Positions 4,323-40,205 of a stretch of 64,000 nt of DNA are shown piece after piece. The notes under the pieces were generated by a model that was not told the origin of the DNA, ran no database searches, and saw only the letters and a list, made by a program, of their open reading frames with translations. Position 1 is the first letter of the stretch, and each line of letters starts with the position of its first letter. The DNA is from Thermoanaerobaculia bacterium (GTDB taxonomy: Bacteria; Acidobacteriota; Thermoanaerobaculia; Multivoradales; Multivoraceae), in contig OY762911.1 of assembly GCA_963666565.1 (NCBI GenBank), positions 1,216,001-1,280,000 on the forward strand. Direction: 5' to 3'. A program made the translations under genes and the position numbers.

Positions 4323-6229
4323 TCTCCTTCGCCCTGGACCAGGGTCCGGTACTCCCCGGGCCGCACATCGGTCCAACGTTCCGCCGCGCCGTCGGGCCAG
4401 CGGACCTCGACTCGGGTGACGGCGGCGTTCGCGCCGTCGCCGAGGCCGACCAGCACCCGCGGGTCGCGGGCGGAGGCGTAGCTGCCGTCGGTGTGGACGT
4501 GGCGCCAGATGGGCGGCGCGCCGTCCCGGTGGATCGTGACCTGCGCGCCCAGGGCGTCGCGGTCGTGGGCCACGAGTCGCAGGCCCAGCCAGGGGCGGTC
4601 CTGGCCGACCTCGTTCCGCAGCAGGCGGGCCGGCCCGTTGCTGTTGACGACGACGGCGTCCAGGTCGCCGTCGTTGTCGACGTCGCCGAAGGCGGCGGCG
4701 CGGCTGACCTCGGACGACTCGAAGATCGCGCCGGCCTCGGCCGTGACCTCCGCGAAGGCGCCGTTGCCGAGGTTGCGGAAGAGCTGGTTCGTCTGCCGCA
4801 GCGGGTACGGATCGCCGGTGCGGATCAGCGCGTCGATGCCGATGACGGCGCCGTTGACGACGAGCACGTCGAGCCGGGAATCGTTGTCGTAGTCGATCCA
4901 GCCGATGCCGAAGGCGGTGAACGGCAGGCTCGGCGGTCCCAGTTGCGTCGATACCGACTCGTCCCGGAACAGACCGGCGCCGCCGTTGACGTAGAGGGTG
5001 TTCGTCTCCTGCTCCAGGTGGCTGAGGACGATGTCGGGTTGGCCGTCGCCGTCGAAGTCGCCGGCGTCGACGCCCATGCCGGCCTCGGGCTGGCCCTCGC
5101 GGTTGACGGCGACTCCAGCCAGCAGGGCGTTGTCGGCGAAGGTGCCGTCGCCCCGGTTGATCCAGAGCCGGTTCCACATCAGGTCGTTCGCCACGTAGAG
5201 GTCGATCCAGCGGTCGCCGTTGAAATCGGCGGCAACGGCGCCGAGGCCGGAACCGGGTTCGGCGCCGATTCCCGACGATGACGACACGTCCTCGAAGGTC
5301 CCGTCGCTCCGGTTGCGGAACAGGCTGTCGGTCGCCGGCCGGTAGGCGCCGGGGGCGCAGTAGGTCAACACCCCGCTCGGCAGCGGGCACGGGGAGTGGT
5401 CCGCCGGCGAGTAGTCGACGTAGTTGCCGACGTAGAGGTCCAGCCAGCCGTCGCGGTCGAAGTCGAAGAACGTAGCGGCGACGGACCAGCGGGGATCGTC
5501 CGCACCCGAGGCGGCGGTGACATCGTCGAAGGTGCCGTCGCCGCGGTTTCGCAGCAACTGGTTGGCGCCGAAGTTCGTGACGTACAGGTCCGTCCAGCCA
5601 TCGTTGTCGAAGTCGCCGGTCGCGACGCCCATGCCGTAGCCGTCGGCTTCGATCCGGCTTTCGCCGGTGACGTCGGTGAAACGAAGCGCGGCGCCGGCGG
5701 CGCCGCCAGCTCCTGGTTTCGGCAGGTCGTTGCGGTAGAGGCGGTCGGTGAGCGGCGTGCCGGGAGGCGGCGGGAAGAGGGTGTCGCCGGGGGACAGGCC
5801 GGGGTTCGGCGTTCCGCCCTGGGCGAGGTACAGGTCGAGGTCGCCGTCGTTGTCGAAGTCGAACAGTGCGGCGCCGCCGCCCATGATCTCGTTGAAGTAG
5901 TGCTCGCCGGACATGCCGTTGAAGTAGGCGAAATCGAGACCAGCTGCGGGGGCGGCGTCGATGAAGATGGGGCGTTCGGTGGTGGAGGTGGGGTCGGGGG
6001 CTGGAGAGCAGGCGATGAGGAGGAGAATGAGGGCGAGGGGATAGCGCGGGCTCGCCGCTGCGCGGCATCGCGCCTGATGCGGGTCAGAAGACCCGCGCAC
6101 CCAGTGGTACGGGCTCGCCGCTTCGCGGCATCGAGACCGGGTGCGCGGGTCTTCCGACCCGCTGCCGCCGGAGGCGGCCAGGAAGACGCGCCGGCCGCCA
6201 GGTCGGCGCCACTCCGGCGAAACGCTCAA
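4316..6229 (-). CDS. CRTAC1-family FG-GAP/VCBS repeat lipoprotein with ASPIC/UnbV C-terminal domain
   Basis: C-terminal part of ORF 4316..8119. Repeated DFDNDGxxDLY motifs; C-terminal GSYASARDPRVLVGLG...VEVRWPDG; lipobox LIAC. Start taken as the TTG overlapping the upstream stop (TTGA); exact start uncertain. Confidence 0.85.
   Translation of the reverse strand: MSVSPEWRRPGGRRVFLAASGGSGSEDPRTRSRCREAASPYHWVRGSSDPHQARCRAAASPRYPLALILLLIACSPAPDPTSTTERPIFIDAAPAAGLDFAYFNGMSGEHYFNEIMGGGAALFDFDNDGDLDLYLAQGGTPNPGLSPGDTLFPPPPGTPLTDRLYRNDLPKPGAGGAAGAALRFTDVTGESRIEADGYGMGVATGDFDNDGWTDLYVTNFGANQLLRNRGDGTFDDVTAASGADDPRWSVAATFFDFDRDGWLDLYVGNYVDYSPADHSPCPLPSGVLTYCAPGAYRPATDSLFRNRSDGTFEDVSSSSGIGAEPGSGLGAVAADFNGDRWIDLYVANDLMWNRLWINRGDGTFADNALLAGVAVNREGQPEAGMGVDAGDFDGDGQPDIVLSHLEQETNTLYVNGGAGLFRDESVSTQLGPPSLPFTAFGIGWIDYDNDSRLDVLVVNGAVIGIDALIRTGDPYPLRQTNQLFRNLGNGAFAEVTAEAGAIFESSEVSRAAAFGDVDNDGDLDAVVVNSNGPARLLRNEVGQDRPWLGLRLVAHDRDALGAQVTIHRDGAPPIWRHVHTDGSYASARDPRVLVGLGDGANAAVTRVEVRWPDGAAERWTDVRPGEYRTLVQGEGDQ
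6047..6197. repeat. Two inverted REP-like copies plus a 24-bp direct repeat in the 5' end of the CRTAC1 gene
   Basis: Cores at 6079-6096 and 6145-6162; direct repeat 6047-6070 / 6110-6133 (23/24 identical). Confidence 0.85.
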
Positions 6230-8655
6230 CCGCTGCGTTCCAGCGCCCGCGCCGCCGCGAGTTCGCGCCGCGCCTCTTCCGGCAGGCCGAGCCTCGTGAA
6301 GATGTCGGCGAGCAGGTAGTGGCCCATCGGCGCCATGTCCGAGCCCGGGTCGAGTTGGAGGCCGGTGCGGGCCAGTTCGATCGCGCGGTCCAGTTGTTCG
6401 TTGCCGTCGACCAGGGACTTGGCCAGGAAGAAGTGGCCGACGGCGAACTCCGGGTTGATCTCGATCGATTGCTCCAGGGCCTGGGTTGCCCCGTAGCGGT
6501 CCCCCAGGCTGTCGAGCAGCCGGCCGAGGTTGAACTGGACCCGGTAGCTCTGCGGGTGGACGTCGAGTTCGCGGCGGTAGAAGTCCACCGCGGCGCGGGG
6601 GTCGCCGCGCTCCTCGGCGAGCAGGGCGAGGTTGAAGTGGGCCAGGCGAACGTCCTCCTGAACGGTCAGGGCCTCCTCGAAGAGCCGCTCCGCGTTGACC
6701 GGATCGGACCGGAGGAGCGCCACGGCGCCTTGGCTGACCACCGCGGCGCCCATCTCCGGTGACAGATCGGCTGCCTCCCTGAGGTGCTCCTCGGCGCCCT
6801 CCAGGTCGCCGAAGTCCACGAGCATGCGCGCCAGTTCGTAGTGGATGATCGCGTTGCGTGGATCGAGCCGCAGGAACTCCCGGTAGCCGAGGATCGCCTC
6901 TTCCTCGGCCCCGGCCCGCCGGTAGGCGTTGGCGAGGTTGATCACGGCGTGGGCGTAGTCGGGCTTCAGTTCGATGGCTCTCCGGTAGCTCTCGATCGCG
7001 GCGCCGGTGTCGTCGCCGCGCACCTGTTCGTCGCCGAGCCGGACCCAGGCGTCGATCACCGACGGGTCCTCGATCAGCACCCGTTCCAGGGCTTCGACGG
7101 CCGCCGGCCGGTTCCCCTTGAGCGAAGCCTCGCGGGCGTCGCGCATCAGGTTGTAGAGATGGATCCGGTCCTTCGGGTCGGCGAGCAGGGCCCGGTCCAC
7201 GCTCTCGTCGGTACTGCCGCCGAAACGGGCCAGATAGCCGAGGGCGGCGAGACGCGCCCGGGTTTCCGGGTCGATCTCCTCGATCGCCGCCGGCCGCGCC
7301 ACGTCGGCCCATCGCGACTCGAGGGACTGGAGCATCGAGGCCATCCGGTCCGCCTCGTCGGGCCGCGCGGCGAACAGGTTGTTCCGCTCGTCCGGGTCGA
7401 CCGCCAGGTCGTACAACTCGGGCCGGGGCGCGGCGACGTACTTCATGTTCTCGACCCGCAGCGCGGCGAGGTCGCTCCAGCCGAAGTGATAGCGCGGATA
7501 GACGGCTTCCGCGTAGGCCGGGAGGCGCGGCCCGGACGCGCCGGTCAGGAGCCGGACGATGCTTGCGCCTTCGAAGGAGGAATCCCGCTCCGCCTGGCCC
7601 GCGTCGACCGCCAGCAGGTCGAGGACGGTCGGGGAGACGTCGACCGCCCTGACCACGTCGCCGATCCGGCGGCCCCGCATCGTGTCGTAGGGCGCGCGGA
7701 GGATGAAGGGAACCCGCGTCGCCCCCTCGTAGATGAAGAAGCCGTGGCCGGATTCGCCGTGCTCGCCGAGACTCTCGCCGTGGTCTCCGATCACGATGAC
7801 GACGGTGTCGTCGGCGCGCCCGTTCCGGTCGAGCCAGTCCAGCAACCGTCCGACCTGCGAGTCGACGTAGGCGATCTCGCCGACGTACGGACGGTTCCGG
7901 TAGCGCTCGGCGAACGGTTCCGGCGGTTCGTAGGGCGAGTGCGGATCGTAGAAGTGGACCCAGGTAAAGAAGCGCGCGTCCGGGGCCTCGTCGAGCCACG
8001 TCAACGCGGCGTCCGTGACCTCGCCCGCCGGCCGTTCGATCTCGTTCAGCGCCAGCCGCACGGTGTCGCTCAGTTCGAAGTCGTCGAAGTAACGGTCGAA
8101 GCCCTGGGCGATCCCCCACTTCGCGTCGAGCACGAACGCCCCGACGAAGCCGCCGGTGCGCAGACCCTCGTCCCGCAGGATCTCGGCCAGGACGACGTGC
8201 TCGTCGCCCAGGTAGAAAGCGCCGTTGTCCCTGACCCCGTGAGCCGGCGGGAACTGCCCGGTGAAGATCGACGCGTGCGCCGGCAAGGTCAGCGGCGCCA
8301 CCGCCTCCGCCTGCTCGAACAGCACCCCCTCCGCCGCCAGCCGGTCCATGTGCGGCGTCTCGATATCAGCGAACCCGTAGGCCCCGATCCGATCCGCCCG
8401 GGTCGTGTCCAGCGTGATGAGCAGAAGACTCAGGTCACCGGGCCCGACCCCGCCCGGAAGCCGACCCAGCACATGCCCCGACGGCGCCGTGACTTCTCCG
8501 CCGGAGGACAGTAGCCGGACCGCCACACCGACCACCGCAACGCCGGCAACGGCCAAGGCCACAGCAAGCCCGATCCACCGACCCAGCTTTGCTCGTTTCG
8601 CTCGGCCAGCGGTCAACTCGCTGGTTTCATCCCGGCGGGGTCGTGCGCTGCCCAT
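6226..8655 (-). CDS. Sulfatase-like hydrolase/transferase with C-terminal TPR repeats
   Basis: LITLDTTRAD, PLTLPAHASIFTG, HFYDPHSPY and GDHGESLGEHGE motifs of the alkaline-phosphatase superfamily; N-terminal TM anchor; TPR tail. Confidence 0.9.
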   Translation of the reverse strand: MGSARPRRDETSELTAGRAKRAKLGRWIGLAVALAVAGVAVVGVAVRLLSSGGEVTAPSGHVLGRLPGGVGPGDLSLLLITLDTTRADRIGAYGFADIETPHMDRLAAEGVLFEQAEAVAPLTLPAHASIFTGQFPPAHGVRDNGAFYLGDEHVVLAEILRDEGLRTGGFVGAFVLDAKWGIAQGFDRYFDDFELSDTVRLALNEIERPAGEVTDAALTWLDEAPDARFFTWVHFYDPHSPYEPPEPFAERYRNRPYVGEIAYVDSQVGRLLDWLDRNGRADDTVVIVIGDHGESLGEHGESGHGFFIYEGATRVPFILRAPYDTMRGRRIGDVVRAVDVSPTVLDLLAVDAGQAERDSSFEGASIVRLLTGASGPRLPAYAEAVYPRYHFGWSDLAALRVENMKYVAAPRPELYDLAVDPDERNNLFAARPDEADRMASMLQSLESRWADVARPAAIEEIDPETRARLAALGYLARFGGSTDESVDRALLADPKDRIHLYNLMRDAREASLKGNRPAAVEALERVLIEDPSVIDAWVRLGDEQVRGDDTGAAIESYRRAIELKPDYAHAVINLANAYRRAGAEEEAILGYREFLRLDPRNAIIHYELARMLVDFGDLEGAEEHLREAADLSPEMGAAVVSQGAVALLRSDPVNAERLFEEALTVQEDVRLAHFNLALLAEERGDPRAAVDFYRRELDVHPQSYRVQFNLGRLLDSLGDRYGATQALEQSIEINPEFAVGHFFLAKSLVDGNEQLDRAIELARTGLQLDPGSDMAPMGHYLLADIFTRLGLPEEARRELAAARALERSG

Positions 8656-8719
8656 GGCGGAGTACGAAGGCTAGCAGCCAGGTTGAGTCGGCGCTCCGTT
8701 CCGGGTGGTCGCCGGCCTT

Positions 8720-8782
8720 CGGCCAGCGGCGTTACTTGGCCGCCTTCGGCGGCAGCGGGTCAGAAGACCCGCGCACCGACAC
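8720..8782 (+). repeat. REP-like copy (full two-hairpin form)
   Basis: GGCCGCCTTCGGCGGCA-GCGGGTC-AGAA-GACCCGC-GCACCGACAC. Confidence 0.85.
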
Positions 8783-8846
8783 CCGGAAGAGCCCGGCGCA
8801 CCGACACGCGGTAGCAGGCGTCGTTCGGATGACTGGAGGACGTCCA

Positions 8847-9021
8847 GCCCACCGAGGGCCTGTGGAGAGGGTCCCAGCGGGCTGGAGGCAAGTGACGCCC
8901 ACCGTCCTCCCATCAACCAACGCCGATGTGAAACGCAGCCGACCGAAGCGAGCGCCGACGTTCCCTCTACTCAGAGAGCGCGAGCGTCCGCTGGGACCCT
9001 CTCCACAGGCCCTCGGCGGGC
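8847..9021. repeat. Long inverted repeat pair (MITE/REPIN-like)
   Basis: CCGAGGGCCTGTGGAGAGGGTCCCAGCGG (8852-8880) is the exact reverse complement of 8988-9016; extends to 34 bp with 1 mismatch; 107-bp spacer. Confidence 0.8.
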
Positions 9022-9063
9022 GGGTGCAACCTCCGTCGCACCCGCCGTGCCGCTACGAGCCGC

Positions 9064-11983: not shown

Positions 11984-12014
11984 ATCGGGTTCAGCCGGTT
12001 GAATCCTCCGTTGC

Positions 12015-12074
12015 CTGGGTGCGCGGGTCTTCCGACCCGCATGCCGCCGAAGGCGGCCAGGAACACGCCGGCCG
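12015..12074 (-). repeat. REP-like copy (full form)
   Basis: Plus strand CTGGGTGC-GCGGGTC-TTCC-GACCCGC-ATGCCGCCGAAGGCGGCCAGGAACACGCCGGCCG. Confidence 0.85.
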
Positions 12075-12096
12075 TCAGGCCGCCGCCACATCGCCT

Positions 12097-13245
12097 CTAC
12101 TGCCGCGCCACTTCCTCGATCGCCTCGATCCCGCCGACCCTCTCCGCGTTGTCGAGATACACCTGCCGCACCTTCTCCTCGAACAGCTCCCGGTCGATCT
12201 CGTTGAACTCGATCCCCAGCTTCTCCAGTTCGACCAGGGCCGCCGCGGTCATCGACGCCATCGCCTCCCGTTCGACCGCGACCGACGCCCGCCCCGCCTC
12301 CAGCACCGCGGCCTGGACCTCGGCCGGCAGATCGTCGTAGAGCTTTCGGCTGAAGACCAGGGCGACGGCCAGGTAGAGGTGCCGGGTGTAGGACACGTAC
12401 CTGGTGACCTCGTAGAAGCGCTCCCCGTAGAGATCGACGTGATCCGTCTCCGCGCCGTCGACGACGCCCTGCTCCAACGCCGAGTAGAGCTCGCCGAACG
12501 ACATCGGGGTCGCCTGCGCGCCGAGGGCGTTGAACGTGTCGACGAGGATCGGCGTCGGGATGACGCGGATCTTCAGACCCTCGAAGTCGGCTGGCACGAC
12601 GATGGGCCGCTCGGCGTTCCAGGCGTTGCGGCGGCCCGCGAACCAGTAGCCGAGCACGACGACGTCGAGTTCTTCCTCGATGCGAGCGGCGACGCGCTCG
12701 CCGACCGGGCCGTCCAGCACCCGGTAGAAGTGGTCGAGGTCGCGGAAGATGAAGGGGAAGTTGAAGATCTCCGCCTCCGGCACGAAGGCCGCGATGCCGC
12801 CGCCGGCGCTGGCCGCCGAGGCCGCCAAAGCCCCCAGCTTCACCATCAGGGTCGCCTCCTCCTCGGTGCCGAGCTGCGCGTTCTCGAAGATCTGGACCTG
12901 CACCGCGCCGCCGGTGCGCTCCTCCAGGACGCGGCGGAACTCCTCGAAGCCGGCCTGGAACGGGTGTCCGGCCGGTCCGTTGTGGGCGACCTTGAGCACG
13001 GTCGCGCCGTCGTTGCCGCGGCAGCCGGCGAGGAGGGCGATGGCGCAGAGCGCGAGGAACGCGGCGGCGCCGCCAGAGTGGAGCCGACCTAACGGCCGGC
13101 GCGTTCTCCTGGCCGCCTTCGGCGGCAGCGGGTCAGAACCCGGCTGGCAGGTCCCCGCGCCAGCCGCGTCACGGTCCGAGCGCCCGTCTTCGGGCGGTCG
13201 GATGTCAGACCCGCGCATCGGCAGGCGTCGCCGAGGGCTACTCAT
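12097..13245 (-). CDS. dctP: TRAP transporter substrate-binding lipoprotein (DctP family)
   Basis: FEGLKIRV and ATPMSFGELYSALEQGVVDGAE motifs; lipobox LAGC; long n-region containing a REP copy. Confidence 0.92.
   Translation of the reverse strand: MSSPRRRLPMRGSDIRPPEDGRSDRDAAGAGTCQPGSDPLPPKAARRTRRPLGRLHSGGAAAFLALCAIALLAGCRGNDGATVLKVAHNGPAGHPFQAGFEEFRRVLEERTGGAVQVQIFENAQLGTEEEATLMVKLGALAASAASAGGGIAAFVPEAEIFNFPFIFRDLDHFYRVLDGPVGERVAARIEEELDVVVLGYWFAGRRNAWNAERPIVVPADFEGLKIRVIPTPILVDTFNALGAQATPMSFGELYSALEQGVVDGAETDHVDLYGERFYEVTRYVSYTRHLYLAVALVFSRKLYDDLPAEVQAAVLEAGRASVAVEREAMASMTAAALVELEKLGIEFNEIDRELFEEKVRQVYLDNAERVGGIEAIEEVARQ
13093..13219 (+). repeat. REP-like copy (apparently split) within the dctP 5' coding region
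   Basis: CGGCCGGCGCGTTCTCCTGGCCGCCTTCGGCGGCAGCGGGTCAGAA at 13093-13138; right half AGACCCGCGCATC at about 13207-13219. Confidence 0.8.
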
Positions 13246-14518
13246 AGCCGAGCGCGCGCGGCAGCCACAGCGTGACCTGCGGCGCGAAAGTCAGGACGAG
13301 AAGCATCGCGAGCAGCAGCGCCAGGAACGGCAGCAGCTTCGGCGTCACCTTCTCGATCGGCGTCTTCCCGACGCCGCAAGCCACGTACAGGCAGATGCCG
13401 ACCGGCGGCGAGATCATGCCGATGCCGACGTTGGCGGCCACCAGAATGCCGAAGTGGAGCGGATCCATGCCGAGCGCCATCGCCGCCGGCAGCAGGATGG
13501 GCATCAGGATGATGATCGGCGGCAGGGCGTCCATCACCATGCCGAGAACGAGGAAGACGAGGTGGACGAAGAGGATGAAGACGATCCAGTTCGGCGCGTG
13601 GGCCGAGATCCCCTCCGCGAGCAGATGCGGCAGCCGCTCGAAGGTCAGCACGAACGAGAACATGGACGCCGTGCCCAGCACGAACAGGACGACGCCGGAG
13701 AGCGAAGCGGTCCGGAGCAGGATCTTGGGGATGTCCTCGAGCTTCAGCTCCCGGTAGACGAAGAAGGAGACCAGGGCGCCGTAGACCACGGCGACCGCCG
13801 ACGCCTCCGTCGGCGTGAAGACGCCGCCGTAGATGCCGCCGAGGATGATGACGATCATGAACAGCGGCAGGATGCCGTCGCGGATCGTGCGCAGCCGCCG
13901 CGGCCAAGTCGTGCGTTCTTCGAGCGGCAGGTCGAGGTCGAGCGCGCGAATCCAGGTGAGCCCCATCAGCGCCAGGCCCAGCACGATGGCCGGCGTGACG
14001 CCGGCCGCGAACAGGGCGCCGATCGACATTCCCGAGACGACGCCGATGACGATCAGGTCGATCGCCGGCGGCACCAGGGTGGAGACGCCGCCGGCCGAAG
14101 CGAACACGGCGGTCGCGAACGCCGGCGGGTACTTCCGCTCTCGCATGGCCGGCAGGGCCACCGAGCCGATCGCGGCGGTGTTTGCGCTCGGCGAGCCCGA
14201 GATGCCGGAGAACAGCATCGTCGAGAGGATGACGACCAGGCCGAGACCGCCGGGCAGGCGGCCGACGAACTGCATGGCCAGGTCCACGATCCGGCGCGCC
14301 ATGCCGCCGTGCGAGATGAGCGCCCCGGCGAGCACGAACAGCGGCACCGCCAGGAGCGGGAACGAGTCGAGCCCGGCGAGGAACTTCTGCGGCAGGACGA
14401 TCAGGAACTCGGGCGAGCTGTAGAGCAGGCCGACCATGGCCGCGAGCGCCAGCGCGATCGCGACCGGCACGCCGAGGAGCAGCGCCGCGACCAGGGTGAG
14501 AACGACCAGGAGCCCCAT
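13238..14518 (-). CDS. dctM: TRAP transporter large permease (DctM)
   Basis: LLAVPLFVLAG, FSGISGS, GGVFTPTEAS and ISPPVG motifs; start at MGLLVVL (14518). Confidence 0.92.
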   Translation of the reverse strand: MGLLVVLTLVAALLLGVPVAIALALAAMVGLLYSSPEFLIVLPQKFLAGLDSFPLLAVPLFVLAGALISHGGMARRIVDLAMQFVGRLPGGLGLVVILSTMLFSGISGSPSANTAAIGSVALPAMRERKYPPAFATAVFASAGGVSTLVPPAIDLIVIGVVSGMSIGALFAAGVTPAIVLGLALMGLTWIRALDLDLPLEERTTWPRRLRTIRDGILPLFMIVIILGGIYGGVFTPTEASAVAVVYGALVSFFVYRELKLEDIPKILLRTASLSGVVLFVLGTASMFSFVLTFERLPHLLAEGISAHAPNWIVFILFVHLVFLVLGMVMDALPPIIILMPILLPAAMALGMDPLHFGILVAANVGIGMISPPVGICLYVACGVGKTPIEKVTPKLLPFLALLLAMLLVLTFAPQVTLWLPRALGYE

Positions 14519-14529
14519 CGGCCGTCCCT

Positions 14530-15015
14530 CTACTCCCCTCGTTCCGCACGGAGCTCGCGGCGCCAGTTGACGAGCGCGTAGTACAGGGTCAGCGTGCTGC
14601 CGGCGAAGGCGGACGAGTAGGGGATCGCCATCGACATCCTCGTGGCCGGCGCCTCCATGCCGCGCACCTCGATGGCGAAGAGGAGCGACTGCGAGGCGAA
14701 GACCGCGAGGAAGACGGCCGTGGCCGCGGCAACGGCGGCGCCGATCCAGCGCCGCGCCGCGGGCGGCGCCCGGTCCACGACGAAGCGGAGCGCGAAGTGG
14801 GCGCCCGTCTTCATCGCGTAGGCGGCGGAGAGAGCCGCCAGCCACATCAGCAGGAAGCGGGCGAGTTCCTCCGACCAGGACAGCGACGCCTGCAGGACGT
14901 ACCGGAAAACGACCTGGGAAAACGTGACCGCGACCAGGGCGACCAGGATCGTGCAGACCGCCGCCTCCAGCGGGTGGCGGACCAGAGTCCGGAGCGCTGC
15001 GCCGATCCGGTTCAA
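14530..15015 (-). CDS. dctQ: TRAP transporter small permease (DctQ)
   Basis: QVVFRYVLQASLSWSEELARFLLMW motif; TTG start overlaps the SDR stop (TTGA). Confidence 0.88.
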   Translation of the reverse strand: MNRIGAALRTLVRHPLEAAVCTILVALVAVTFSQVVFRYVLQASLSWSEELARFLLMWLAALSAAYAMKTGAHFALRFVVDRAPPAARRWIGAAVAAATAVFLAVFASQSLLFAIEVRGMEAPATRMSMAIPYSSAFAGSTLTLYYALVNWRRELRAERGE

Positions 15016-31354: not shown

Positions 31355-31356
31355 GG

Positions 31357-31428: not shown

Positions 31429-31474
31429 TTCGCGCCGCAATTGTCGAGAATCGTCGGGGAAGAGAGACCGCCAG

Positions 31475-33953: not shown

Positions 33954-33996
33954 CCGCGGAGGCTGCCGGAAACCGCAAGTTCGACCCGGTCGGAGG

Positions 33997-34025
33997 TTGA
34001 CGCGGCGTTCTTCCTGTGAAAGGCT
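33997..34025 (+). promoter_or_regulatory. Putative tRNA promoter
   Basis: TTGACG-N17-AAGGCT (weak -10), 12 nt before the tRNA. Confidence 0.35.
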
Positions 34026-34037
34026 CCTCCGTCCTGA

Positions 34038-34114
<77 letters not shown>

Positions 34115-34123
34115 AGTCTTCAG

Positions 34124-34150
34124 AGGCGCGGCCTTCGGGCCGCGCCCTTT
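34124..34150 (+). terminator. Intrinsic terminator after tRNA-Met
   Basis: GGCGCGGCC-TTCG-GGCCGCGCC followed by CTTT. Confidence 0.7.
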
Positions 34151-34205
34151 CGCATGTAAGCGGGGGCTTCCCGGCGGCGGTTATCGCTCGTGTAGGCTCT
34201 CTCTC

Positions 34206-34556
34206 GTGTCGCCGACGCCGAAAGGGGGGCGCGAACGACTGCGGGAGCGCGTGGATCGTTGGCGCGAGAGGGCTCAGCGTTCGCTGCCGACGCTGATCGG
34301 CGTGGGGCTGGTCCTGGCCCTGCTGTTTCTCGCCAGGGCGGGCAGGGAAAGCTACGCGGGACTGGCCGAACTGGCGGAGCGCGAGGCGGAGCTCGAGATC
34401 GACCTGGAAGAGACGCGGGTGCGAGTGGAGCGCCTCCGGCGGACGGTGGAGCTGCTCCAGGACGATCCGGTGGTGCTGGAGCGGCTCGCGCGCGAGGAGC
34501 TGGGCCTCGTGAGGCCGGGCGACACGGTGGTCGTCCTGCCGCGGACGGACGACTGA
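34206..34556 (+). CDS. ftsB: Septum formation initiator FtsB/DivIC
   Basis: TM helix, coiled coil and LERLAREELGLVRPGD motif. Confidence 0.8.
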   Translation: MSPTPKGGRERLRERVDRWRERAQRSLPTLIGVGLVLALLFLARAGRESYAGLAELAEREAELEIDLEETRVRVERLRRTVELLQDDPVVLERLAREELGLVRPGDTVVVLPRTDD

Positions 34557-34571
34557 CGCCGACGCCCGCCG

Positions 34572-37500
34572 GTGTCCGCGTGGCGTGAACTGGGCCGCCG
34601 CATTCGCTGCGGCCGGGACTACCGCGAGCTGGCGGCGGCGGAGCGGGCGGCGGTCGCCGGTCTTCCGGTCCGTGCGGCGGCGCTCGTGTTCGAGCTGCTG
34701 GCGGACGACCGGGAGGGGCCGCAGCTCGTCGTCGTGCCGAGCGAGAACGAGGTCCTGGCCTGGACGGAGGCCGCGGGCCTGCTGCGCGGGCGGGACCCGG
34801 GGCGGGTCGTCCCCTTCCCGTCGCCGGCGCTGACGCCCTATCAGCAGGCGGAGGCCTCGCTGCTGGTGCGCGCCCAGGAGAGCACCGCCTACGACTCGCT
34901 GCTCAACGCGTCGCGGGTGACCGTCGTCTGCACGCCCCGCGCCCTGTTCCACCGCCTGGCCGAACCGGACGCGTTCCTCGCGTCGGTGGTCGAACTGGAG
35001 GTCGACGGCCAGGCGACGCCCGAGGACCTGTTGCCGCGCCTTCTGGCCCACGGCTACCGGCGGAGCGACCTCGTGGCGGCGGTCGGCGCGGTGGCGCAGC
35101 GCGGCGGCGTGTTCGATCTGTTCGCGCCCGGCGAACCCCGGCCGGCGCGGCTCGACCTGTTCGGCGACACGGTCGAGAGCATCCATCGGTTCGATCCGTC
35201 GACCCAGCGTTCCGAAGAACCGATCGGGTCCCTGCGCGTGCGGCCGCTGACGCCCTTCGCCGCCGGGCCGGAGCAGGCGGCCGCCCTGGCCGGCCTGCTG
35301 CTGGAGGAAGGCGGCGACGCGCTCTCGGACCGGGCCCGGGCCCAGTTGGACGACATGGCCGCGGGTGAGCCCTTCGACGGCTGGGAGAAGTACCTGCCCC
35401 TGCTGGCCCCGAGCACGAGTCTCGGCGAGGCGATGGCGGACGCTCCGGTCGTCGTGGTCGACCCCGAGCGGGTAAGCGGGGAAGTCGAACAGCACGCCGC
35501 GCTGCTCTGGGAGGAGTACGCCCGGCGGCGCGAGGACGGCGACCTCGCGGCCGAGCCCGAGCGGCTGACCGTGCCGGCGGACCAGGTGATGGAACTCGTC
35601 GAGCGGTCGGCCTTCCGGGTGGGCGGGACGTTCGATCCGGCCGCGGGCGGCCGGCGCGCCCGGGTCGACTTCGCCGCCGTCGAGACGGACGTCCTGATCG
35701 ATCAGCTTCCCCGTTTTCCGCGCGAAGTGGAGACGGCCGCCGCGCGCGGCGACGACCTCTGGCTGGTGGCCGGCGCCGAACGGCACGAGGCGCTCCGTCA
35801 GACGCTGGGCCGCCGGGAGATCGACTGGGACGGCGGCGCCGTGCGCCTGGTCGACGGCGAACTGGCCCGGGGCTTCCGCCTGCCGCGGGCGGGCGTGGTG
35901 CTGTACGGCGCCGGCCAGCTCTTCCGCCGGCGCCCCCGGGCGAGGCGCCGGCGCCGGATGGGTCCGTTCGTCTCCGGGCTGAGCGACCTGCGCGTGGGCG
36001 AGTTCGTCGTCCACGAGGACCACGGCATCGGCCAGTTCCTGGGGCTCAAGACCCTCGACGGCCCCTCCGGCGACGGCCCGCAACCCGGCGGGAACGGGCG
36101 CCGCCAGCGGCAGGCGCGCGCGGTCGAAGTGATGGAGCTTCTCTACTCGTCGGGCCGGACGCTGCTCCTGCCGCTGACCCGGCTGGACGAGATCGAGCGC
36201 TACAGCGGCATCGACGGCATCGCGCCCCGTCTCGACCGGTTGGGCGGCAGCAGTTGGGCGAAGAAGAAGAGCCGGATCCGGCGCAGTCTCAAGGCGATCG
36301 CCACCGACCTGCTGAAGCTCTACGCCGAGCGCCGGCTGGCGCAGGCGGTGCCGATGGGCGGGGACAGCGACCGCCAGCTCCAGTTCGAGAGCGCCTTTCC
36401 CTACGAGGAGACGCCCGATCAACTGCAGGCCGTGCGGGAGATCAAGGAGGACCTCGCCCGCGACCGGCCGATGGACCGCCTGCTGTGCGGCGACGTCGGC
36501 TTCGGCAAGACGGAGGTTGCGATGCGGGCGGCGTTCAAGGCGGTCGACAACGGGTTGCAGGTCGCCGTACTGGCGCCGACCACGATCCTCGCCGACCAGC
36601 ACCTGCGGACCTTCCGGCGGCGATTCCAGGGCTTCGGCGTCGAGATCGAGATGGTCTCCCGGTTTCGGTCGGCGGCCGAGATCCGGGCGATCCGGGCCCG
36701 GCTCGCCGCGGGCGAGATCCACGTCCTGATCGGCACCCACCGGTTGCTCGGCCGGGACATCGACATGCCGTGCCTGGGTCTGGTCGTGATCGACGAGGAG
36801 CAGCGCTTCGGCGTAGCCCAGAAGGAGCGGCTGCGCGAACTCCGGCGCAACGTCCACGTGCTGGCCATGTCCGCGACGCCGGTGCCGCGCACGTTGCAGC
36901 TATCTCTCGCCGGGGTGAGGGATCTCTCGCTGATCGAATCGCCGCCCCGCGACCGGATGGCGGTCGAGACCCGCATCCTGCCGTTCTCGGGCGATCTCGT
37001 CCGCGAGGCGATCGAGTTCGAGGTGGAGCGCGGCGGCCAGGTGTTCTACGTTTACAACCGGGTCGAGGACATCGAGGGGGTCCTCCGCTATCTGCGCGAG
37101 CTGGTGCCGGGGCTCAGGATCGCGGTCGGCCACGGGCAACTGGAAGAGGCGGAGCTGGGCCGGCGCATGCGCGCCTTCACGGTGGGCGACTACGACCTGC
37201 TGCTGGCGACGACGATCATCGAGAACGGGATCGACATCCCGAACGTGAACACGATGCTCGTACACCGCGCCGACCGGTTCGGCCTGGCCCAGCTCTACCA
37301 GTTGCGGGGCCGGGTGGGCCGCAGCGATCAGCTCGGCTACTGCTACCTGCTGGCGCCGCCGGACACCGTGCTCTCGGCGGAGGCGCGCAAGCGGCTCGTG
37401 GCGATCCGCGAGTTCACGGAACTCGGGGCGGGATTCCGCATCGCCGCCCGCGACCTGGAGATCCGCGGGGCGGGTAACCTGCTCGGCGCCGAGCAGAGCG

Positions 37501-38051
37501 GTCACATCGCCGAGGTCGGGATCGAGACCTACATGAAGATGCTGGAACAGGCGATCGCCGAACTGCGCGGCGAGGCGCCGTCCGAGGCGCCGTCCGCCAC
37601 GATCAGCCTGCCGTCGTCCATGTCGATCCCGGACGACTACATCGGCGAGGTATCGCTTCGGCTGGAGATCTACCGCCGTCTGGCGGACGTCGCGGAGGAT
37701 CCGGCGACGCTGCTGGCGGAGTTGCGCGACCGCTTCGGGCCGCCGCCGGAACCCGTCCACGCGCTGATTCAGGGCGCCGAACTGAAGCGGATCGCCGAGG
37801 GACTCGGCGTCCAGGCGATCGCGCACCGCAACGACCGGCTGACGATCCGGCTGCGCCGCGACGCGAAGGTCGACGTCGAGCGTCTGATCCGCTTCGTCTC
37901 GGAACGCGACGGCGCCGCCTTCGCGCCCGACGGCGTGCTGACGCTGCGCGACGTCCCGGGACGGGAGTCGATGGAGATCTCGCTCCAGTTGCTGGAACTT
38001 CTGGCGGGCGAACCGCAACGGCGCCTGGGCGGCGCGGAGACGGTCCATTGA
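34572..38051 (+). CDS. mfd: Transcription-repair coupling factor
   Basis: VVHEDHGIG, DRLLCGDVGFGKTE, IDEEQRFG, QLRGRVGRS and DLEIRGAGNLLG motifs. Confidence 0.97.
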   Translation: MSAWRELGRRIRCGRDYRELAAAERAAVAGLPVRAAALVFELLADDREGPQLVVVPSENEVLAWTEAAGLLRGRDPGRVVPFPSPALTPYQQAEASLLVRAQESTAYDSLLNASRVTVVCTPRALFHRLAEPDAFLASVVELEVDGQATPEDLLPRLLAHGYRRSDLVAAVGAVAQRGGVFDLFAPGEPRPARLDLFGDTVESIHRFDPSTQRSEEPIGSLRVRPLTPFAAGPEQAAALAGLLLEEGGDALSDRARAQLDDMAAGEPFDGWEKYLPLLAPSTSLGEAMADAPVVVVDPERVSGEVEQHAALLWEEYARRREDGDLAAEPERLTVPADQVMELVERSAFRVGGTFDPAAGGRRARVDFAAVETDVLIDQLPRFPREVETAAARGDDLWLVAGAERHEALRQTLGRREIDWDGGAVRLVDGELARGFRLPRAGVVLYGAGQLFRRRPRARRRRRMGPFVSGLSDLRVGEFVVHEDHGIGQFLGLKTLDGPSGDGPQPGGNGRRQRQARAVEVMELLYSSGRTLLLPLTRLDEIERYSGIDGIAPRLDRLGGSSWAKKKSRIRRSLKAIATDLLKLYAERRLAQAVPMGGDSDRQLQFESAFPYEETPDQLQAVREIKEDLARDRPMDRLLCGDVGFGKTEVAMRAAFKAVDNGLQVAVLAPTTILADQHLRTFRRRFQGFGVEIEMVSRFRSAAEIRAIRARLAAGEIHVLIGTHRLLGRDIDMPCLGLVVIDEEQRFGVAQKERLRELRRNVHVLAMSATPVPRTLQLSLAGVRDLSLIESPPRDRMAVETRILPFSGDLVREAIEFEVERGGQVFYVYNRVEDIEGVLRYLRELVPGLRIAVGHGQLEEAELGRRMRAFTVGDYDLLLATTIIENGIDIPNVNTMLVHRADRFGLAQLYQLRGRVGRSDQLGYCYLLAPPDTVLSAEARKRLVAIREFTELGAGFRIAARDLEIRGAGNLLGAEQSGHIAEVGIETYMKMLEQAIAELRGEAPSEAPSATISLPSSMSIPDDYIGEVSLRLEIYRRLADVAEDPATLLAELRDRFGPPPEPVHALIQGAELKRIAEGLGVQAIAHRNDRLTIRLRRDAKVDVERLIRFVSERDGAAFAPDGVLTLRDVPGRESMEISLQLLELLAGEPQRRLGGAETVH

Positions 38052-38965
38052 ACTCGCGGCGATTCTCCGCTGGGTGCGCGGGTCTTCTGACCCGCTGCCG
38101 CCGCAGGCGGCGTCAGCCCCGCGCCCCCGGCATGCGGCAAGCGAAGGGGCGACTGTCCGCCTGGCTGCTGGCGGCCACTCTCCTGGCCTGTGCGGGCAGC
38201 CTGCCGGAAGGAGTCGTCGCGCGGATCGGCGGCGAGAACAAGACCTACGAGGACTTCGACCGCTACGTCCTGAGCGTTCTCGGGGTCGACGCCTCCAGGT
38301 CGAGCAGCGAGGTGCTGTCCCGGCTCTTCGAGCGGTTCGTGGACGACGAACTCCTGCTGCGCTGGACCCGGGACCGGGGGCTGGCCGGCGCGGAGGCCGG
38401 CGCCCACGAGGCCGCCGCCGCGCTGCTCGAATCGTCGCCGCCCGAGGTTTCACCGGCGGACGTCGAGCGCCACTACGCGGAGCATCGGAGCGAGTACGAG
38501 CGGCCCGCCCGGGCGCGCCTGCGCCAGATCCTGGTCGAGGACCGGGCCGGCGCCGACCGGGCGCTGGGCGAACTCGAGGCGGGAGTGGACTTCGGCGAAG
38601 TGGCGCGGATCCGTTCGATCGGCCCGAGCGCTCCCGACGGCGGCCTCCAGGGCGAACTGTCGCGGGAGGACCTGCCCGGAGCGCTGGCCGAGGCCGTGTT
38701 CGCGCTCGAGGAAGGGGAGTGGAGCGGCCTGCTGGAGGCCGAGTACGGCTTTCGGATCTTCCAGGTCGAGGGCTACCTGCCGGAGGAGACGCTGTCGCTC
38801 CAGGAGGCGGCGCCGTCCATCCGGTCCCGGCTGGTCGCGGAACGCAGCGACGCGCTGGTCCGCCGGACGGTGGAGGAGGCGAGGCGGGAATACAATCTGC
38901 GGGTAGCCGTTGCACGGTTGCCGTTCGAGTACCGCGGCCGCTACGGCCCACCCGCCGCCGATTGA
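38048..38965 (+). CDS. Parvulin-type peptidyl-prolyl isomerase lipoprotein (PrsA/PpiC-like)
   Basis: Lipobox LLAC; RQILV...FGEVARIRS...GGLQG...YGFRIF rotamase domain; TTG start coupled to the mfd stop (alternative ATG 38132). Confidence 0.85.
   Translation: MNSRRFSAGCAGLLTRCRRRRRQPRAPGMRQAKGRLSAWLLAATLLACAGSLPEGVVARIGGENKTYEDFDRYVLSVLGVDASRSSSEVLSRLFERFVDDELLLRWTRDRGLAGAEAGAHEAAAALLESSPPEVSPADVERHYAEHRSEYERPARARLRQILVEDRAGADRALGELEAGVDFGEVARIRSIGPSAPDGGLQGELSREDLPGALAEAVFALEEGEWSGLLEAEYGFRIFQVEGYLPEETLSLQEAAPSIRSRLVAERSDALVRRTVEEARREYNLRVAVARLPFEYRGRYGPPAAD
38067..38111 (-). repeat. REP-like copy at the PPIase 5' end
   Basis: Plus strand CCGCTGGGTGC-GCGGGTC-TTCT-GACCCGC-TGCCGCCGCAGGCGGC. 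Confidence 0.85.
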
Positions 38966-38975
38966 GGAACACGCC

Positions 38976-40205
38976 ATGACTCCAGTTCGAGCAGCAGACT
39001 GTCTCCGGCCGCCAGGGCGGCGCCGGCCCGACGGCCGGCGCACCCGGTGCGCGGCCAGTTCCATGGGCGATAGCGCGGCCTTGCGGCGGCGATTGCTCGT
39101 GGCGTCGCTGCTGCTGGCGCTGAGCGTCGCTCCCGCCGCCGGGCAGCCGGCGCTCGACGCGGACAACCGCGTCATCCTCCGGGTCAACGACCGGATCGTG
39201 ACCCTTTACGACTACCAGCGGGCCGTCGCCGAACAGATCCGGGGCATCCGGAACACCCCCGGTCTCACCGAGCCGCAACGCCAGGAGCGGCTGGAGCAGG
39301 TCGGCCGTTTGATCATGAAGAGCATGTTCGAGGAGCAGTTGCTCCTCTCGCGGGCGGACCAGCTCGCGGTGGTCGTCGACGAGAGCGACGTCGAGCAGCA
39401 GATCCAGGCGACCTGGGAGCAGTACGGCTTCGAGAACAACGAGCAGTTCCGGGAAGCCCTCGCCCAGTCGGGCATGCGGGAGAAGGACTTCCGGGACCGG
39501 ACGCGCATCCAGTTGCGGTCCAACATCGTGCGCGGCCGCGAGGTGGCGCCCCGGATCGACCTCGCCGACGAGGACCTGCGCCGCTTCTACCGCGACAACC
39601 AGGAGCGCTTCCGCATTCCCGAGCGGGCACGGTTCGAGGAGGTGGTGATTCTCGACGCTGTCGTGCCGGCGGACCGGATGGCGCCGCTGGCGGCGCTGGC
39701 GCGGACCCGGCTGATGTCCGACGCGGTTGCCGCGGACGTGGCGGAGGGGCTTGGCGAAGGCGCGACCGCCGTCGACGTCGGCTGGGTCGCGCCGGGCGAC
39801 CTGGCGGCGGAACTGGACGCCGTCGCCTGGGACCTGCAGCCGGGCGGCGTAGCGGATCCCGTCGCCGCTCGCGGCGGCCTCCACGTGCTGAAGATGCTCG
39901 AGCGCGAACCCGCCTCGGTTGAGCCGTTCGAGGAGGTGCGCGAGGCGATCGAGCGCCAGGAGCGGGGCCGGCTCTTCGACGAGGAGTACGAGCTCTACCT
40001 GGAGGAGCTTGCCGACGCCGCCTACATCGTGGAGCGTCTGCCGGAGGAAGCGGTGGGCTACCGGCCGGTCGCGGCGCCCTCGCTCGACGCCGACGCTCTC
40101 GGACTGCTCAGCCGCTTCGGTCCGGACGCGAGCGCCGAGGCTGCGGAGGAACCCGCGGAGGAACCCGCGGCCGAAGAGACCGGCGACGGCGGCCCCGACG
40201 CCTAG
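38976..40205 (+). CDS. SurA-like chaperone/PPIase
   Basis: RVILRVNDRIVT SurA N-domain; rotamase-like DVGWV...GGLHVLK; alternative ATG 39063. Confidence 0.82.
   Translation: MTPVRAADCLRPPGRRRPDGRRTRCAASSMGDSAALRRRLLVASLLLALSVAPAAGQPALDADNRVILRVNDRIVTLYDYQRAVAEQIRGIRNTPGLTEPQRQERLEQVGRLIMKSMFEEQLLLSRADQLAVVVDESDVEQQIQATWEQYGFENNEQFREALAQSGMREKDFRDRTRIQLRSNIVRGREVAPRIDLADEDLRRFYRDNQERFRIPERARFEEVVILDAVVPADRMAPLAALARTRLMSDAVAADVAEGLGEGATAVDVGWVAPGDLAAELDAVAWDLQPGGVADPVAARGGLHVLKMLEREPASVEPFEEVREAIERQERGRLFDEEYELYLEELADAAYIVERLPEEAVGYRPVAAPSLDADALGLLSRFGPDASAEAAEEPAEEPAAEETGDGGPDA
39005..39047 (+). repeat. REP-like variant copy at the 5' end of the SurA-like gene
   Basis: CCGGCCGCCAGGGCGGC-GCCGGCC-CGAC-GGCCGGC-GCACCCGG. 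Confidence 0.65.

What the first reader, a model, noticed from the sequence alone, without database searches (positions are those of the whole stretch)
6047..39047. REP-like elements translated in frame inside signal-peptide n-regions: a possible 'cleaved-off safe harbour'
Seen: four exported proteins carry the repeat between the likely start and the hydrophobic h-region. CRTAC1 lipoprotein: RRVFLAASGGSGSEDPRTR...WVRGSSDPH...LALILLLIAC. DctP: GSDPLPPKAARRTRRP...FLALCAIALLAGC. PrsA-like PPIase: AGCAGLLTRCRRRRR...LLAC. SurA-like: RPPGRRRPDGRRTR. For CRTAC1 and DctP I find no in-frame ATG/GTG/TTG between the repeat and the h-region, so at least part of the repeat must be translated. Three of the four starts overlap the upstream stop (TTGA at 6229 and 38048; ATGAGTAG at 13245). 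I saw no copy inside a mature protein domain. Known: Rickettsia palindromic elements insert in frame in proteins; n-regions tolerate extra length and Arg-rich sequence and are removed by signal peptidase. Inference: signal-peptide n-regions act as a neutral coding niche for this repeat, and the hairpins may tune translation or export.
Basis: partly seen in the sequence, partly recalled or inferred. Interest (0 to 1): 0.8.

Follow-up and report, generated by a model that had tools for sequence, protein, structure and literature searches.

The report
Mobile hairpin repeats translated inside signal peptides
A small selfish hairpin repeat that normally sits between genes has landed several times in the part of exported-protein genes that encodes the cut-off export signal, where it is read as protein; this is a well-supported case of a known behaviour in an unusually tolerant spot.

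Summary
The repeat is a REP-type hairpin: tag GGGTGC, stem GCGGGTC, 4-nt loop. I count about 790-990 copies in this 4.79-Mb genome, 86% of them outside genes, and one RAYT transposase gene next to a repeat array.

In all four window genes the repeat lies between a start codon conserved across the genus and the hydrophobic core. The genes are a CRTAC1-like lipoprotein, DctP, a PPIase lipoprotein and a SurA-like protein. Relatives without the repeat have short n-regions. Of 31 insert-bearing alleles of three of these genes, 30 keep the frame from the conserved start. A noncoding spacer in the same loci does so in only 14 of 27.

Genome-wide, 53 genes have a repeat with no later possible start codon. 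Of these, 32 (60%) have an N-terminal hydrophobic segment, against 33% of genes without a nearby repeat.

The niche is not exclusive. Twenty-six genes, among them GlmM, PurH and HisD, carry in-frame internal copies, as with Rickettsia RPEs.

Likely cause: repeats settle just after stop codons. Where the next gene starts at that stop, only cleavable signal peptides tolerate them. Neutrality and any tuning role are untested.

This scan's earlier notes report the same thing in other genomes.

The parts
4316..6229 (-). CRTAC1-like lipoprotein gene (FG-GAP_3 plus UnbV_ASPIC), read from TTG 6229, which overlaps the upstream sulfatase-TPR stop
   Evidence: Frame and translation. Pfam. Orthologues at 80-90% identity.
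6044..6229 (-). Repeat-derived n-region coding stretch of the CRTAC1-like gene. It holds two inverted REP hairpins (6079-6096 and 6145-6162) and two copies of a second module (about 6047-6071 and 6112-6136). GTG 6104 in the REP tag is the last possible start.
   Evidence: The repeat-free orthologue L011 reads MSARSALALALVLGAC from a GTGA start. Nine of 10 insert-bearing alleles are in frame.
12097..13245 (-). TRAP-transporter solute-binding lipoprotein DctP, read from ATG 13245, which overlaps the DctM stop
   Evidence: The ATG is conserved in 28 of 28 evaluable orthologues.
13024..13245 (-). DctP n-region plus h-region, 222 nt from the ATG to the lipobox Cys against 60-66 nt in repeat-free relatives. 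It holds a REP whose hairpin is split by a nested element.
13138..13206 (-). 69-nt nested element inserted into the loop of the DctP REP hairpin, in frame
   Evidence: Comparison of G000 with L013. Similar nested inserts of 72 and 87 nt occur in L030 and L014.
38048..38965 (+). PPIase (Rotamase_2) lipoprotein gene. The genus-wide start TTG 38048 overlaps the Mfd stop. REP hairpin at 38078-38095. An alternative ATG at 38132 lies in the inserted DNA. Lipobox Cys at 38189-38191.
38976..40205 (+). SurA-like chaperone gene. The conserved ATG 38976 has GAGGAA upstream. A variant REP hairpin lies at 39022-39039, with its tag running to 39045. Alternative starts at 39063 and 39081.
2401..2418 (.). Intergenic REP hairpin
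8755..8772 (.). Intergenic REP hairpin upstream of the sulfatase-TPR gene (ATG 8655)
12023..12040 (.). Intergenic REP hairpin between the DctP stop and the next gene (ATG 11850)
40264..40281 (.). Intergenic REP hairpin 59 nt after the SurA-like stop
56897..57021 (.). Two REP hairpins (56897-56914 and 57004-57021) between two convergent genes that end at 56870 and 57033

Best explanation
The repeat is a REP/REPIN-type palindrome, probably mobilised by the genome's single RAYT-like tyrosine transposase. Like other REPs it accumulates a few tens of bases downstream of stop codons. In tightly packed operons the next gene's start codon overlaps or abuts that stop (ATGA, TTGA, GTGA). There, 'just after the stop' is already the first codons of the next gene.

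The element has almost no stop codons in any of its six frames and encodes Arg-rich peptides. An insert whose length is a multiple of three therefore only lengthens the N-terminus. Such inserts survive mainly where the N-terminus is a signal peptide, because the added residues fall in the positively charged n-region and are removed with the signal by signal peptidase I or II.

Shown here:
- the insertion sites relative to conserved starts;
- that the frame is kept;
- that no later start codons exist;
- the enrichment in genes with hydrophobic N-termini;
- the link to stop-overlapping starts.

Inferred, not shown: actual translation and cleavage, near-neutrality, and mobilisation by the RAYT.
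For: 1. Element class.
- 790 exact copies and 988 with variants; 851 of the 988 lie in the 12.3% of the genome outside my gene bodies.
- The tag GGGTGC is conserved.
- A PF01797 match at G000:749427-749648 lies about 70 nt from a 4-copy array.

2. DctP.
- 15 orthologues have 60-66 nt from the conserved ATG to the lipobox Cys.
- 13 carry inserts (144-231 nt, 10 distinct lengths). All 13 are multiples of three with no stops.
- L015 has no other in-frame start at all.
- Nested inserts of 69, 72 and 87 nt are also in frame.

3. CRTAC1-like gene. One orthologue is repeat-free. Nine of 10 insert-bearing alleles are in frame with the [T/G]TGA start.

4. PPIase. The TTGA start is in frame in 29 of 29 evaluable alleles, and all 8 insert-bearing ones are multiples of three.

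5. SurA-like gene. The conserved ATG lies upstream of an insert found only in this genome.

6. Two further genes chosen from the genome-wide list show the same pattern.

7. Control. A noncoding spacer in the same DctP loci is a multiple of three in 14 of 27 loci.

8. Genome-wide, with the same rule for all genes (no start up to onset+30 nt), 32 of 53 'forced' genes have a hydrophobic N-segment. The figure is 162 of 379 for genes with a 5' repeat and a later start (p=0.018), and 982 of 2984 for genes without a nearby repeat (p=5e-5).

9. Of 49 forced genes, 43 have a same-strand upstream neighbour. Of those 43, 30 have an in-frame start within -12 to +15 nt of its stop. Among non-forced genes the figure is 52 of 231.

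10. Repeat-bearing n-regions have median length 39 aa and median charge +7; ordinary ones have 9 aa and +2. Only 1 of 39 has a net charge of zero or below.
Against: - There is no direct evidence of translation or cleavage. The one RNA run found held only short contigs of a relative.
- Gene calls, coding onsets and 'signal peptides' come from my own crude codon-score and hydropathy scripts, not from a gene finder or SignalP.
- With the strictest symmetric rule (onset+90 nt) the enrichment over other repeat-flanked genes is marginal: 18 of 28 against 179 of 414, p=0.048. My first run gave p=0.15.
- The 80% figure (39 of 49) comes from a rule that favours hydrophobic genes.
- 5'-proximal repeats as a whole show no frame bias, so most are simply intergenic.
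- One CRTAC1 allele (L009) is out of frame with the conserved start.
- In this genome the PPIase and SurA-like genes have good downstream starts (38132, 39063) that may be the ones actually used.
- Alleles from related species are not independent.
- Some repeat-free orthologues of one test gene also lack any canonical start within 85 codons. Unusual starts may therefore exist in this group.
Confidence: 0.8

Rival explanations
1. The repeats are extragenic and the true starts lie downstream. On this view the long N-termini are annotation artefacts, which is the caution Di Nocera et al. 2013 give for NH2-terminal REPs.
For: - ATG 38132 and ATG 39063 give canonical signal peptides without the repeat.
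- Coding potential begins after the repeats in all four genes.
- 5' repeats show no overall frame bias.
- Passages of PMC3733652 say most NH2-terminal REPs 'may be extragenic'.
Against: - CRTAC1-like and DctP have no ATG, GTG or TTG between the last hairpin and the lipobox.
- 30 of 31 insert-bearing alleles keep the frame from the conserved start, against 14 of 27 for a real spacer.
- In this genome's PPIase the ancestral n-region residues (RRFSA) lie upstream of the repeat.
Confidence: 0.07
2. The repeat supplies the start codon. Translation would begin at the GTG in the REP tag (GGGTGCGC...), for example GTG 6104 or the ATG variant at 13218, so only the 3' part of the insert is translated.
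For: - GTG 6104 and ATG 13218 are in frame and occupy the same position of the repeat.
- By my reading of the list, 12 of 39 forced hydrophobic genes have the tag's GTG as their last possible start.
Against: - GTG-in-frame is not over-represented among forward-oriented 5' repeats: 65, 60 and 56 in the three frames.
- The frame is kept upstream of these GTGs as far as the conserved start.
- L015 and L003 have no usable GTG in the last repeat.
- I saw no Shine-Dalgarno-like sequence before the tag (by eye).
Confidence: 0.1
3. The inserts are selected for a function. An extended, highly cationic n-region, or a stable mRNA hairpin just after a coupled start, would tune export or translation.
For: - The same genes acquired different inserts in different species: DctP shows at least four architectures and CRTAC1 shows eight in-frame lengths.
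- Net charge rises from +2 to +7.
Against: - Presence and absence vary among close relatives. Fifteen of 28 DctP alleles and 21 of 29 PPIase alleles lack an insert.
- All six frames and both orientations are used.
- Insert sequences are heterogeneous and decaying.
- No functional test was possible.
Confidence: 0.1

Closest known systems
REP/REPIN elements with RAYT (TnpA-REP) transposases, including the intragenic REPs surveyed by Di Nocera, De Gregorio and Rocco 2013 (PMC3733652; passages read)
   Same: - Short GC-rich hairpin with a conserved tag at one end.
- Hundreds of copies, mostly extragenic and close to the 3' ends of genes.
- Tandem and inverted groups.
- One Y1-transposase gene beside an array.
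- Some copies read through in frame.
   Different: - The tag reads GGGTGC, not GTAG or CGTC.
- That paper treats most NH2-terminal copies as probably extragenic and does not contain the words 'signal peptide' (0 occurrences).
- Here orthologue comparison shows real in-frame residence in signal-peptide n-regions.
Rickettsia palindromic elements (RPE), the 'coding palindromes' of Ogata et al. as summarised in PMC10969869 (passages read)
   Same: Selfish palindromes inserted in frame in genes for functional proteins, including housekeeping enzymes. Here these are GlmM, PurH, HisD and others.
   Different: - RPEs are about 100-150 bp, and no sequence relationship to them was tested here.
- The units here are 18-bp hairpins within modules of 25-90 nt.
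- The host is a free-replicating 4.8-Mb sponge-associated acidobacterium, not a reduced intracellular genome.
- The strongest niche here is the cleaved signal peptide.
Extended signal peptide region (ESPR) of autotransporters and long Tat n-regions (recalled from general knowledge, not from any call)
   Same: Signal peptides with N-terminal extensions of tens of residues can still work, and in known cases the extension affects targeting kinetics.
   Different: ESPR is a conserved, inherited motif. The extensions here are recent, variable and derived from mobile elements. No twin-arginine consensus was seen by eye.

Membership tests
REP/REPIN (RAYT-associated repetitive extragenic palindromes) | Short imperfect palindrome (about 20-40 bp) in high copy number | tested here: met
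   An 18-bp hairpin plus a 6-nt tag. 790 exact copies, 894 with up to 1 mismatch per arm, and 988 with stem variants.
REP/REPIN (RAYT-associated repetitive extragenic palindromes) | Predominantly extragenic | tested here: met
   851 of 988 copies lie in the 586,978 bp (12.3%) outside my gene bodies.
REP/REPIN (RAYT-associated repetitive extragenic palindromes) | Conserved GTAG or CGTC tetranucleotide tag at one end (Di Nocera 2013) | tested here: inconclusive
   A conserved tag exists at one end, but it reads GGGTGC (core GTGC), not GTAG or CGTC.
REP/REPIN (RAYT-associated repetitive extragenic palindromes) | A RAYT (Y1_Tnp, PF01797) gene flanked by the repeats | tested here: met
   One PF01797 match (36.3 bits against a cut-off of 23) at G000:749427-749648. 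Four hairpins follow at 749718-749817. Only the downstream side was looked at. Catalytic residues were not checked.
REP/REPIN (RAYT-associated repetitive extragenic palindromes) | Inverted doublets (REPINs) | tested here: inconclusive
   Spacings peak at 25-28 and 107-109 nt, and there is an inverted pair at 6079/6145. Orientation was not tallied genome-wide.
Rickettsia palindromic elements (RPE) | In-frame insertion in genes for functional proteins | tested here: met
   27 supported internal loci in 26 genes. Pfam domains continue on both sides of the insert in GlmM-like, PurH, HisD, OCD and M16 proteins.
Rickettsia palindromic elements (RPE) | Element of about 100-150 bp homologous to RPE families | not tested
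   The units here are much shorter. No comparison with RPE sequences was made. This is a likeness in behaviour, not membership.
Sec / lipoprotein signal peptides | Positive n-region, hydrophobic h-region, and a lipobox or AxA-type cleavage site downstream of the insert | tested here: inconclusive
   By eye and by a hydropathy window only. The lipoboxes are LIAC (CRTAC1-like), LAGC (DctP) and LLAC (PPIase); SurA-like has APAAG-QP. The lipobox pattern is recalled. No SignalP or LipoP was available.

The most novel reading that the evidence does not exclude
Signal-peptide n-regions of genes whose start overlaps the preceding stop codon are a general sink for REP-type elements across phyla. They would be filled at about the same density as intergenic DNA because the elements home to just-after-stop positions. 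The resulting Arg-rich extensions of tens of residues would not be inert. They would alter translational coupling or export kinetics, making mobile palindromes a recurrent source of signal-peptide diversity.
Probability: 0.2. Interest if true: 0.65.

Novelty: new member of a known kind. Interest (0 to 1): 0.45.

Why it matters
It gives comparative evidence that REP copies at the 5' ends of genes can be truly coding. Such copies are usually dismissed as start-codon misannotation.

It also offers a simple rule for where they survive: landing just after a stop, an overlapping start, and a cleavable leader.

Practical consequences:
- Gene finders will tend to mis-set starts or miss signal peptides in REP-rich genomes.
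- Signal-peptide predictors will meet n-regions of 40-120 residues.
- By my rough estimate, repeat density in n-regions is about 1 locus per kb, the same as in intergenic DNA, against about 0.006 per kb in the rest of coding sequence. That is a direct read-out of how little constraint an n-region carries.

Tried and rejected
- RNA evidence. One metatranscriptome run held 7% of the sampled words. Laid on 12000-14600 it gave only short contigs, 90-99% alike, on the repeats and on DctM, with none bridging the start to the h-region. This gives no information on expression or start sites.
- REP-donated start codon as a general rule. Rejected because forward-oriented 5' repeats are spread evenly over the three frames.
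- Spacing of adjacent hairpins as a frame test. 23 of 32 spacings inside gene bodies are multiples of three, against 108 of 266 outside. Arrays count many times, so I do not lean on this.
- My first enrichment test was not significant against repeat-flanked genes (19/34 against 149/352, p=0.15). The later test with 39/49 hydrophobic uses a rule that favours hydrophobic genes and is given only as a list.
- The control spacer is noisy. Many loci have about 1080 nt, possibly an extra gene. Five of 32 loci gave no anchor.
- Literature searches found no paper on REPs in signal peptides. One listed paper turned out to be irrelevant. Supplementary table 3 of PMC3733652, which lists intragenic REPs, was not opened and could hold signal-peptide cases.
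- Pseudogene reading. Rejected because the orthologues are 80-90% identical with no internal stops.
Full report
**What the repeat is**

The window is 70% GC and lies in a single-contig 4.79-Mb genome. Its relatives carry public titles such as 'Candidatus Multivorans' and Thermoanaerobaculia/Acidobacteriota MAGs.

The repeat core is an 18-nt hairpin, GCGGGTC-NNNN-GACCCGC. It occurs at 9 places in the window, where shuffles give 0.10 matches. Genome-wide there are 790 exact copies and 894 if one mismatch per arm is allowed.

Aligning 764 oriented copies shows a conserved tag, (CT)GGGTGC, on one side and a looser second hairpin on the other. The same tag precedes stem variants that keep base pairing: GCCGGCG 69, GCCGGCC 16, GCGGACC 12 and GCGGGCC 7.

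In the expanded set of 988 hairpins, 851 lie in the 586,978 bp (12.3%) outside my gene bodies.

The genome has one match to the Y1 transposase family PF01797, at G000:749427-749648 (36.3 bits, cut-off 23). Four hairpins at 27-nt spacing follow it at 749718-749817.

The tag, however, is neither GTAG nor CGTC.

**Methods caveat**

No gene finder or SignalP was available. I called 3430 genes with a codon log-odds score trained on long high-GC3 ORFs. The 'onset' of a gene is the start of its best-scoring suffix. I flagged an N-terminal hydrophobic segment ('H') with a 10-residue hydropathy window. All genome-wide numbers rest on these crude tools.

**The four window genes**

Pfam confirms the names:
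- a FG-GAP_3/UnbV_ASPIC (CRTAC1-like) protein;
- DctP;
- a Rotamase_2 PPIase;
- a SurA-like protein.

Their upstream neighbours are a sulfatase-TPR protein, DctM, Mfd and the PPIase itself.

*(1) CRTAC1-like gene.* The real frame is that of TTG 6229, which overlaps the neighbour's TGA. The ATG at 6068 that the ORF listing reports belongs to another frame.
- After TTG 6229 the only in-frame start is GTG 6104, inside the repeat tag. There is none between hairpin 6079-6096 and the lipobox LIAC.
- I compared the upstream regions of 11 same-genus orthologues.
- L011 has no repeat and reads MSARSALALALVLGAC from a GTGA start.
- L004 is cut by its contig end.
- Including this genome, 10 evaluable alleles carry one to three repeat modules. 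Their lengths from the [T/G]TGA start to a fixed anchor are 165-276 nt, against 102 in L011.
- Nine of the 10 are multiples of three with no stop. L009 (212 nt) is out of frame but has an in-frame ATG within its insert.

*(2) DctP.* ATG 13245 (ATGAGTAG) overlaps the DctM stop. The only other in-frame start is ATG 13218, in a degenerate repeat.
- I examined 32 of the 52 related loci. Of the loci tested, 28 plus this genome gave both landmarks. L038, L041 and L042 lacked the ATGA motif and were dropped. Short loci and more distant loci were not examined.
- Fifteen alleles have 60-66 nt from the ATG to the lipobox Cys, for example MSSPRRAAAFFALGVLALLHPGC.
- Thirteen have 144-231 nt (10 distinct lengths). 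All 13 are multiples of three with no stops.
- L015 has no other in-frame start at all.
- The inserts differ in make-up, with at least four architectures.
- In three lineages a further element of 69, 72 or 87 nt sits inside a REP loop, still in frame. In this genome it is at 13138-13206.

*(3) PPIase.* TTG 38048 overlaps the Mfd stop.
- The same TTGA start is in frame in all 29 evaluable alleles of 30. L073 was missed by my regex, but one search shows its TTG in frame.
- Twenty-one repeat-free alleles have 63, 78 or 93 nt to the anchor. Eight insert-bearing ones have 120-177 nt, all multiples of three. Six of the eight have a hairpin my regex recognises.
- In this genome the ancestral residues RRFSA lie upstream of the repeat, and ATG 38132 lies within the inserted DNA.
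- So the repeat did land in the ancestral n-region. Which start is used now is open.

*(4) SurA-like gene.* ATG 38976, with GAGGAA upstream, is the start shared with the 20 closer orthologues (L067-L086); the 9 more distant ones have a different upstream region. Only this genome has about 24 extra residues, which include the variant hairpin at 39022-39045. Downstream starts at 39063 and 39081 could also serve.

**Control and pooled count**

Across the three genes with several insert-bearing alleles, 30 of 31 keep the frame from the conserved start.

As a control I measured the noncoding spacer between the DctP stop and the next gene in the same loci. It is a multiple of three in 14 of 27 loci, and in 11 of 22 distinct lengths. 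This control is noisy.

Related species are not independent. Even so, there are 25 distinct in-frame lengths against one out-of-frame length.

**Two further genes from the genome-wide list**
- For the peptidase-like gene at G000:3133804-3136458, 7 of 29 orthologues carry REP inserts after a conserved TTG, all in frame. Two more have an insert preceded by an in-frame ATG. Most of the others read M-PVRPLAV... directly.
- For the lipoprotein at G000:2211263-2213632, all 29 orthologues lack repeats. This genome has an insert in frame after the conserved MRAASGAGC.

**Genome-wide pattern**

I called a gene 'forced' if a hairpin lies at or before its onset and no in-frame ATG, GTG or TTG follows it up to a limit. 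With the same limit for all genes the results are:

| Limit | Forced genes with H | Repeat-flanked, later start | No nearby repeat | p vs flanked | p vs none |
|---|---|---|---|---|---|
| onset+30 | 32 of 53 | 162 of 379 | 982 of 2984 | 0.018 | 5e-5 |
| onset+90 | 18 of 28 | 179 of 414 | 982 of 2984 | 0.048 | 9e-4 |

- An earlier run gave 19/34, 149/352 and 1012/3044, with p=0.15 and 0.009.
- A rule that stops the search at the h-region gives 39 H of 49, but that rule favours H genes.
- The ORF is open through the repeat in 140 of 178 H genes against 139 of 215 others (p=0.003).
- In the 39 forced-H genes the n-region is 14-119 aa long, median 39, counted from the last possible start. Median net charge is +7, and only one has a charge of zero or below. 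For 946 H genes without a repeat the medians are 9 aa and +2.
- All six frames of the element are open and used. Four of the six carry a net positive charge.

**Why there**

Of the 49 forced genes, 43 have a same-strand upstream neighbour. For 30 of those 43 an in-frame start lies within -12 to +15 nt of the neighbour's stop. Among non-forced genes this is 52 of 231.

The first hairpin lies a median of 56 nt after the upstream stop in forced genes and 41 nt in the others. The repeats therefore sit where REPs usually sit, just after a stop, whether or not a gene has already begun there.

A note from this scan on another genome suggested this reading. I tested it here.

5'-proximal repeats as a whole show no frame preference. 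Most of them are plainly intergenic, and the repeat's own GTG is not generally recruited as a start.

**Not only signal peptides**

Clustering hairpins inside gene bodies gives:
- 27 internal loci in 26 genes with coding signal on both sides;
- 23 doubtful internal loci;
- 29 loci within 60 nt of a stop;
- 26 loci within 150 nt of the onset.

Examples of internal inserts:
- a GlmM-like mutase, with the insert between Pfam domains I and II;
- PurH, HisD, an ornithine cyclodeaminase and an M16 peptidase;
- tandem in-frame arrays of 7 x 36 nt, 5 x 27 nt and 4 x 51 nt.

This is RPE-like behaviour.

A rough density comparison:
- 1180 H genes x 27 nt gives about 32 kb of n-region, holding 32-39 loci, or about 1 per kb.
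- Intergenic DNA has 561 loci in 587 kb, also about 1 per kb.
- The rest of coding sequence has 27 loci in 4.2 Mb, about 0.006 per kb.

The n-region is thus about as permissive as noncoding DNA, but it is not the only coding site.

**Literature**
- Di Nocera et al. 2013 (PMC3733652; abstract and passages read) describe intragenic REPs. They note that many lie at the NH2 terminus but say these 'may be extragenic'. 'Signal peptide' occurs 0 times in that paper.
- A 2024 MITE review (PMC10969869; passages read) covers RPE in-frame fusions and also has 0 occurrences.
- Searches for REP, RPE or MITE together with signal peptide found nothing relevant.
- 'Candidatus Multivorans' gave no paper.
- I did not open the supplementary table of intragenic REPs in PMC3733652.

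**Earlier notes of this scan**

At least eight earlier AI notes report REP-like repeats in frame in signal peptides of other genomes: Acidobacteriota, Anaerolineales, Patescibacteria, Seleniivibrio and others. One note reports an in-frame REP array in this genome. They are unchecked leads. My scores rest on the tests above.

**Verdict**

The repeats are very probably translated within n-regions, and such copies are enriched in proteins with hydrophobic N-termini. The niche is not exclusive, however, and neutrality and any regulatory role remain untested.

The kind of event, REP/RPE palindromes read in frame, is known. What this case adds is firm comparative evidence for 5' copies and a simple positional explanation.

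Noticed in passing
window 13138-13206; also L014, L030, L037 (DctP loci): A second kind of element (69, 72 and 87 nt in three comparisons) is inserted into the loop of a REP hairpin and splits its stem. It looks like a small mobile element that targets REP loops.
   Followed up: partly
G000 genome-wide: REP stem variants that keep base pairing share the same GGTGC tag: GCCGGCG 69, GCCGGCC 16, GCGGACC 12 and GCGGGCC 7 copies, beside GCGGGTC with 727.
   Followed up: partly
window 6047-6071 and 6112-6136; 72-81 copies in G000: A second repeat module...GATGCCGCG(A/C)AGCGGCGAGCC..., with a hairpin GCCGC-NNN-GCGGC. It often accompanies the main REP and is also translated in the CRTAC1-like and DctP n-regions of several species.
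   Followed up: partly
G000:742556-744934, 752819-755230, 2331162-2332868: Tandem in-frame REP arrays inside long ORFs (7 x 36 nt, 5 x 27 nt, 4 x 51 nt), giving repeats such as AGRKTRAPSGAD and WVRGSSDPH.
   Followed up: partly
G000:781941-783206, 801721-803295, 1655609-1657195, 2321646-2322632, 342091-343389: Single in-frame REP inserts inside a GlmM-like mutase, PurH, HisD, an ornithine cyclodeaminase and an M16 peptidase. Pfam domains are intact on both sides.
   Followed up: partly
L121, L122, L127, L130, L131; L123 has only one TTG, inside the h-region (orthologues of G000:3133804-3136458): These repeat-free orthologues show no usable in-frame ATG, GTG or TTG within 85 codons upstream of the signal peptide. 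This could mean an unusual start codon, a fusion, or a frame problem.
   Followed up: no
window 42349-56870: By eye, the gene order looks like a division and cell-wall (dcw) cluster; no family search was run on these genes. Two REP hairpins follow the last gene of this run, which ends at 56870.
   Followed up: no
L075 versus L076 (PPIase loci): Closely related alleles differ by decay of the REP hairpin (it is still recognisable in L076 but not in L075), while the frame is kept. Translated copies therefore appear to erode in place.
   Followed up: no
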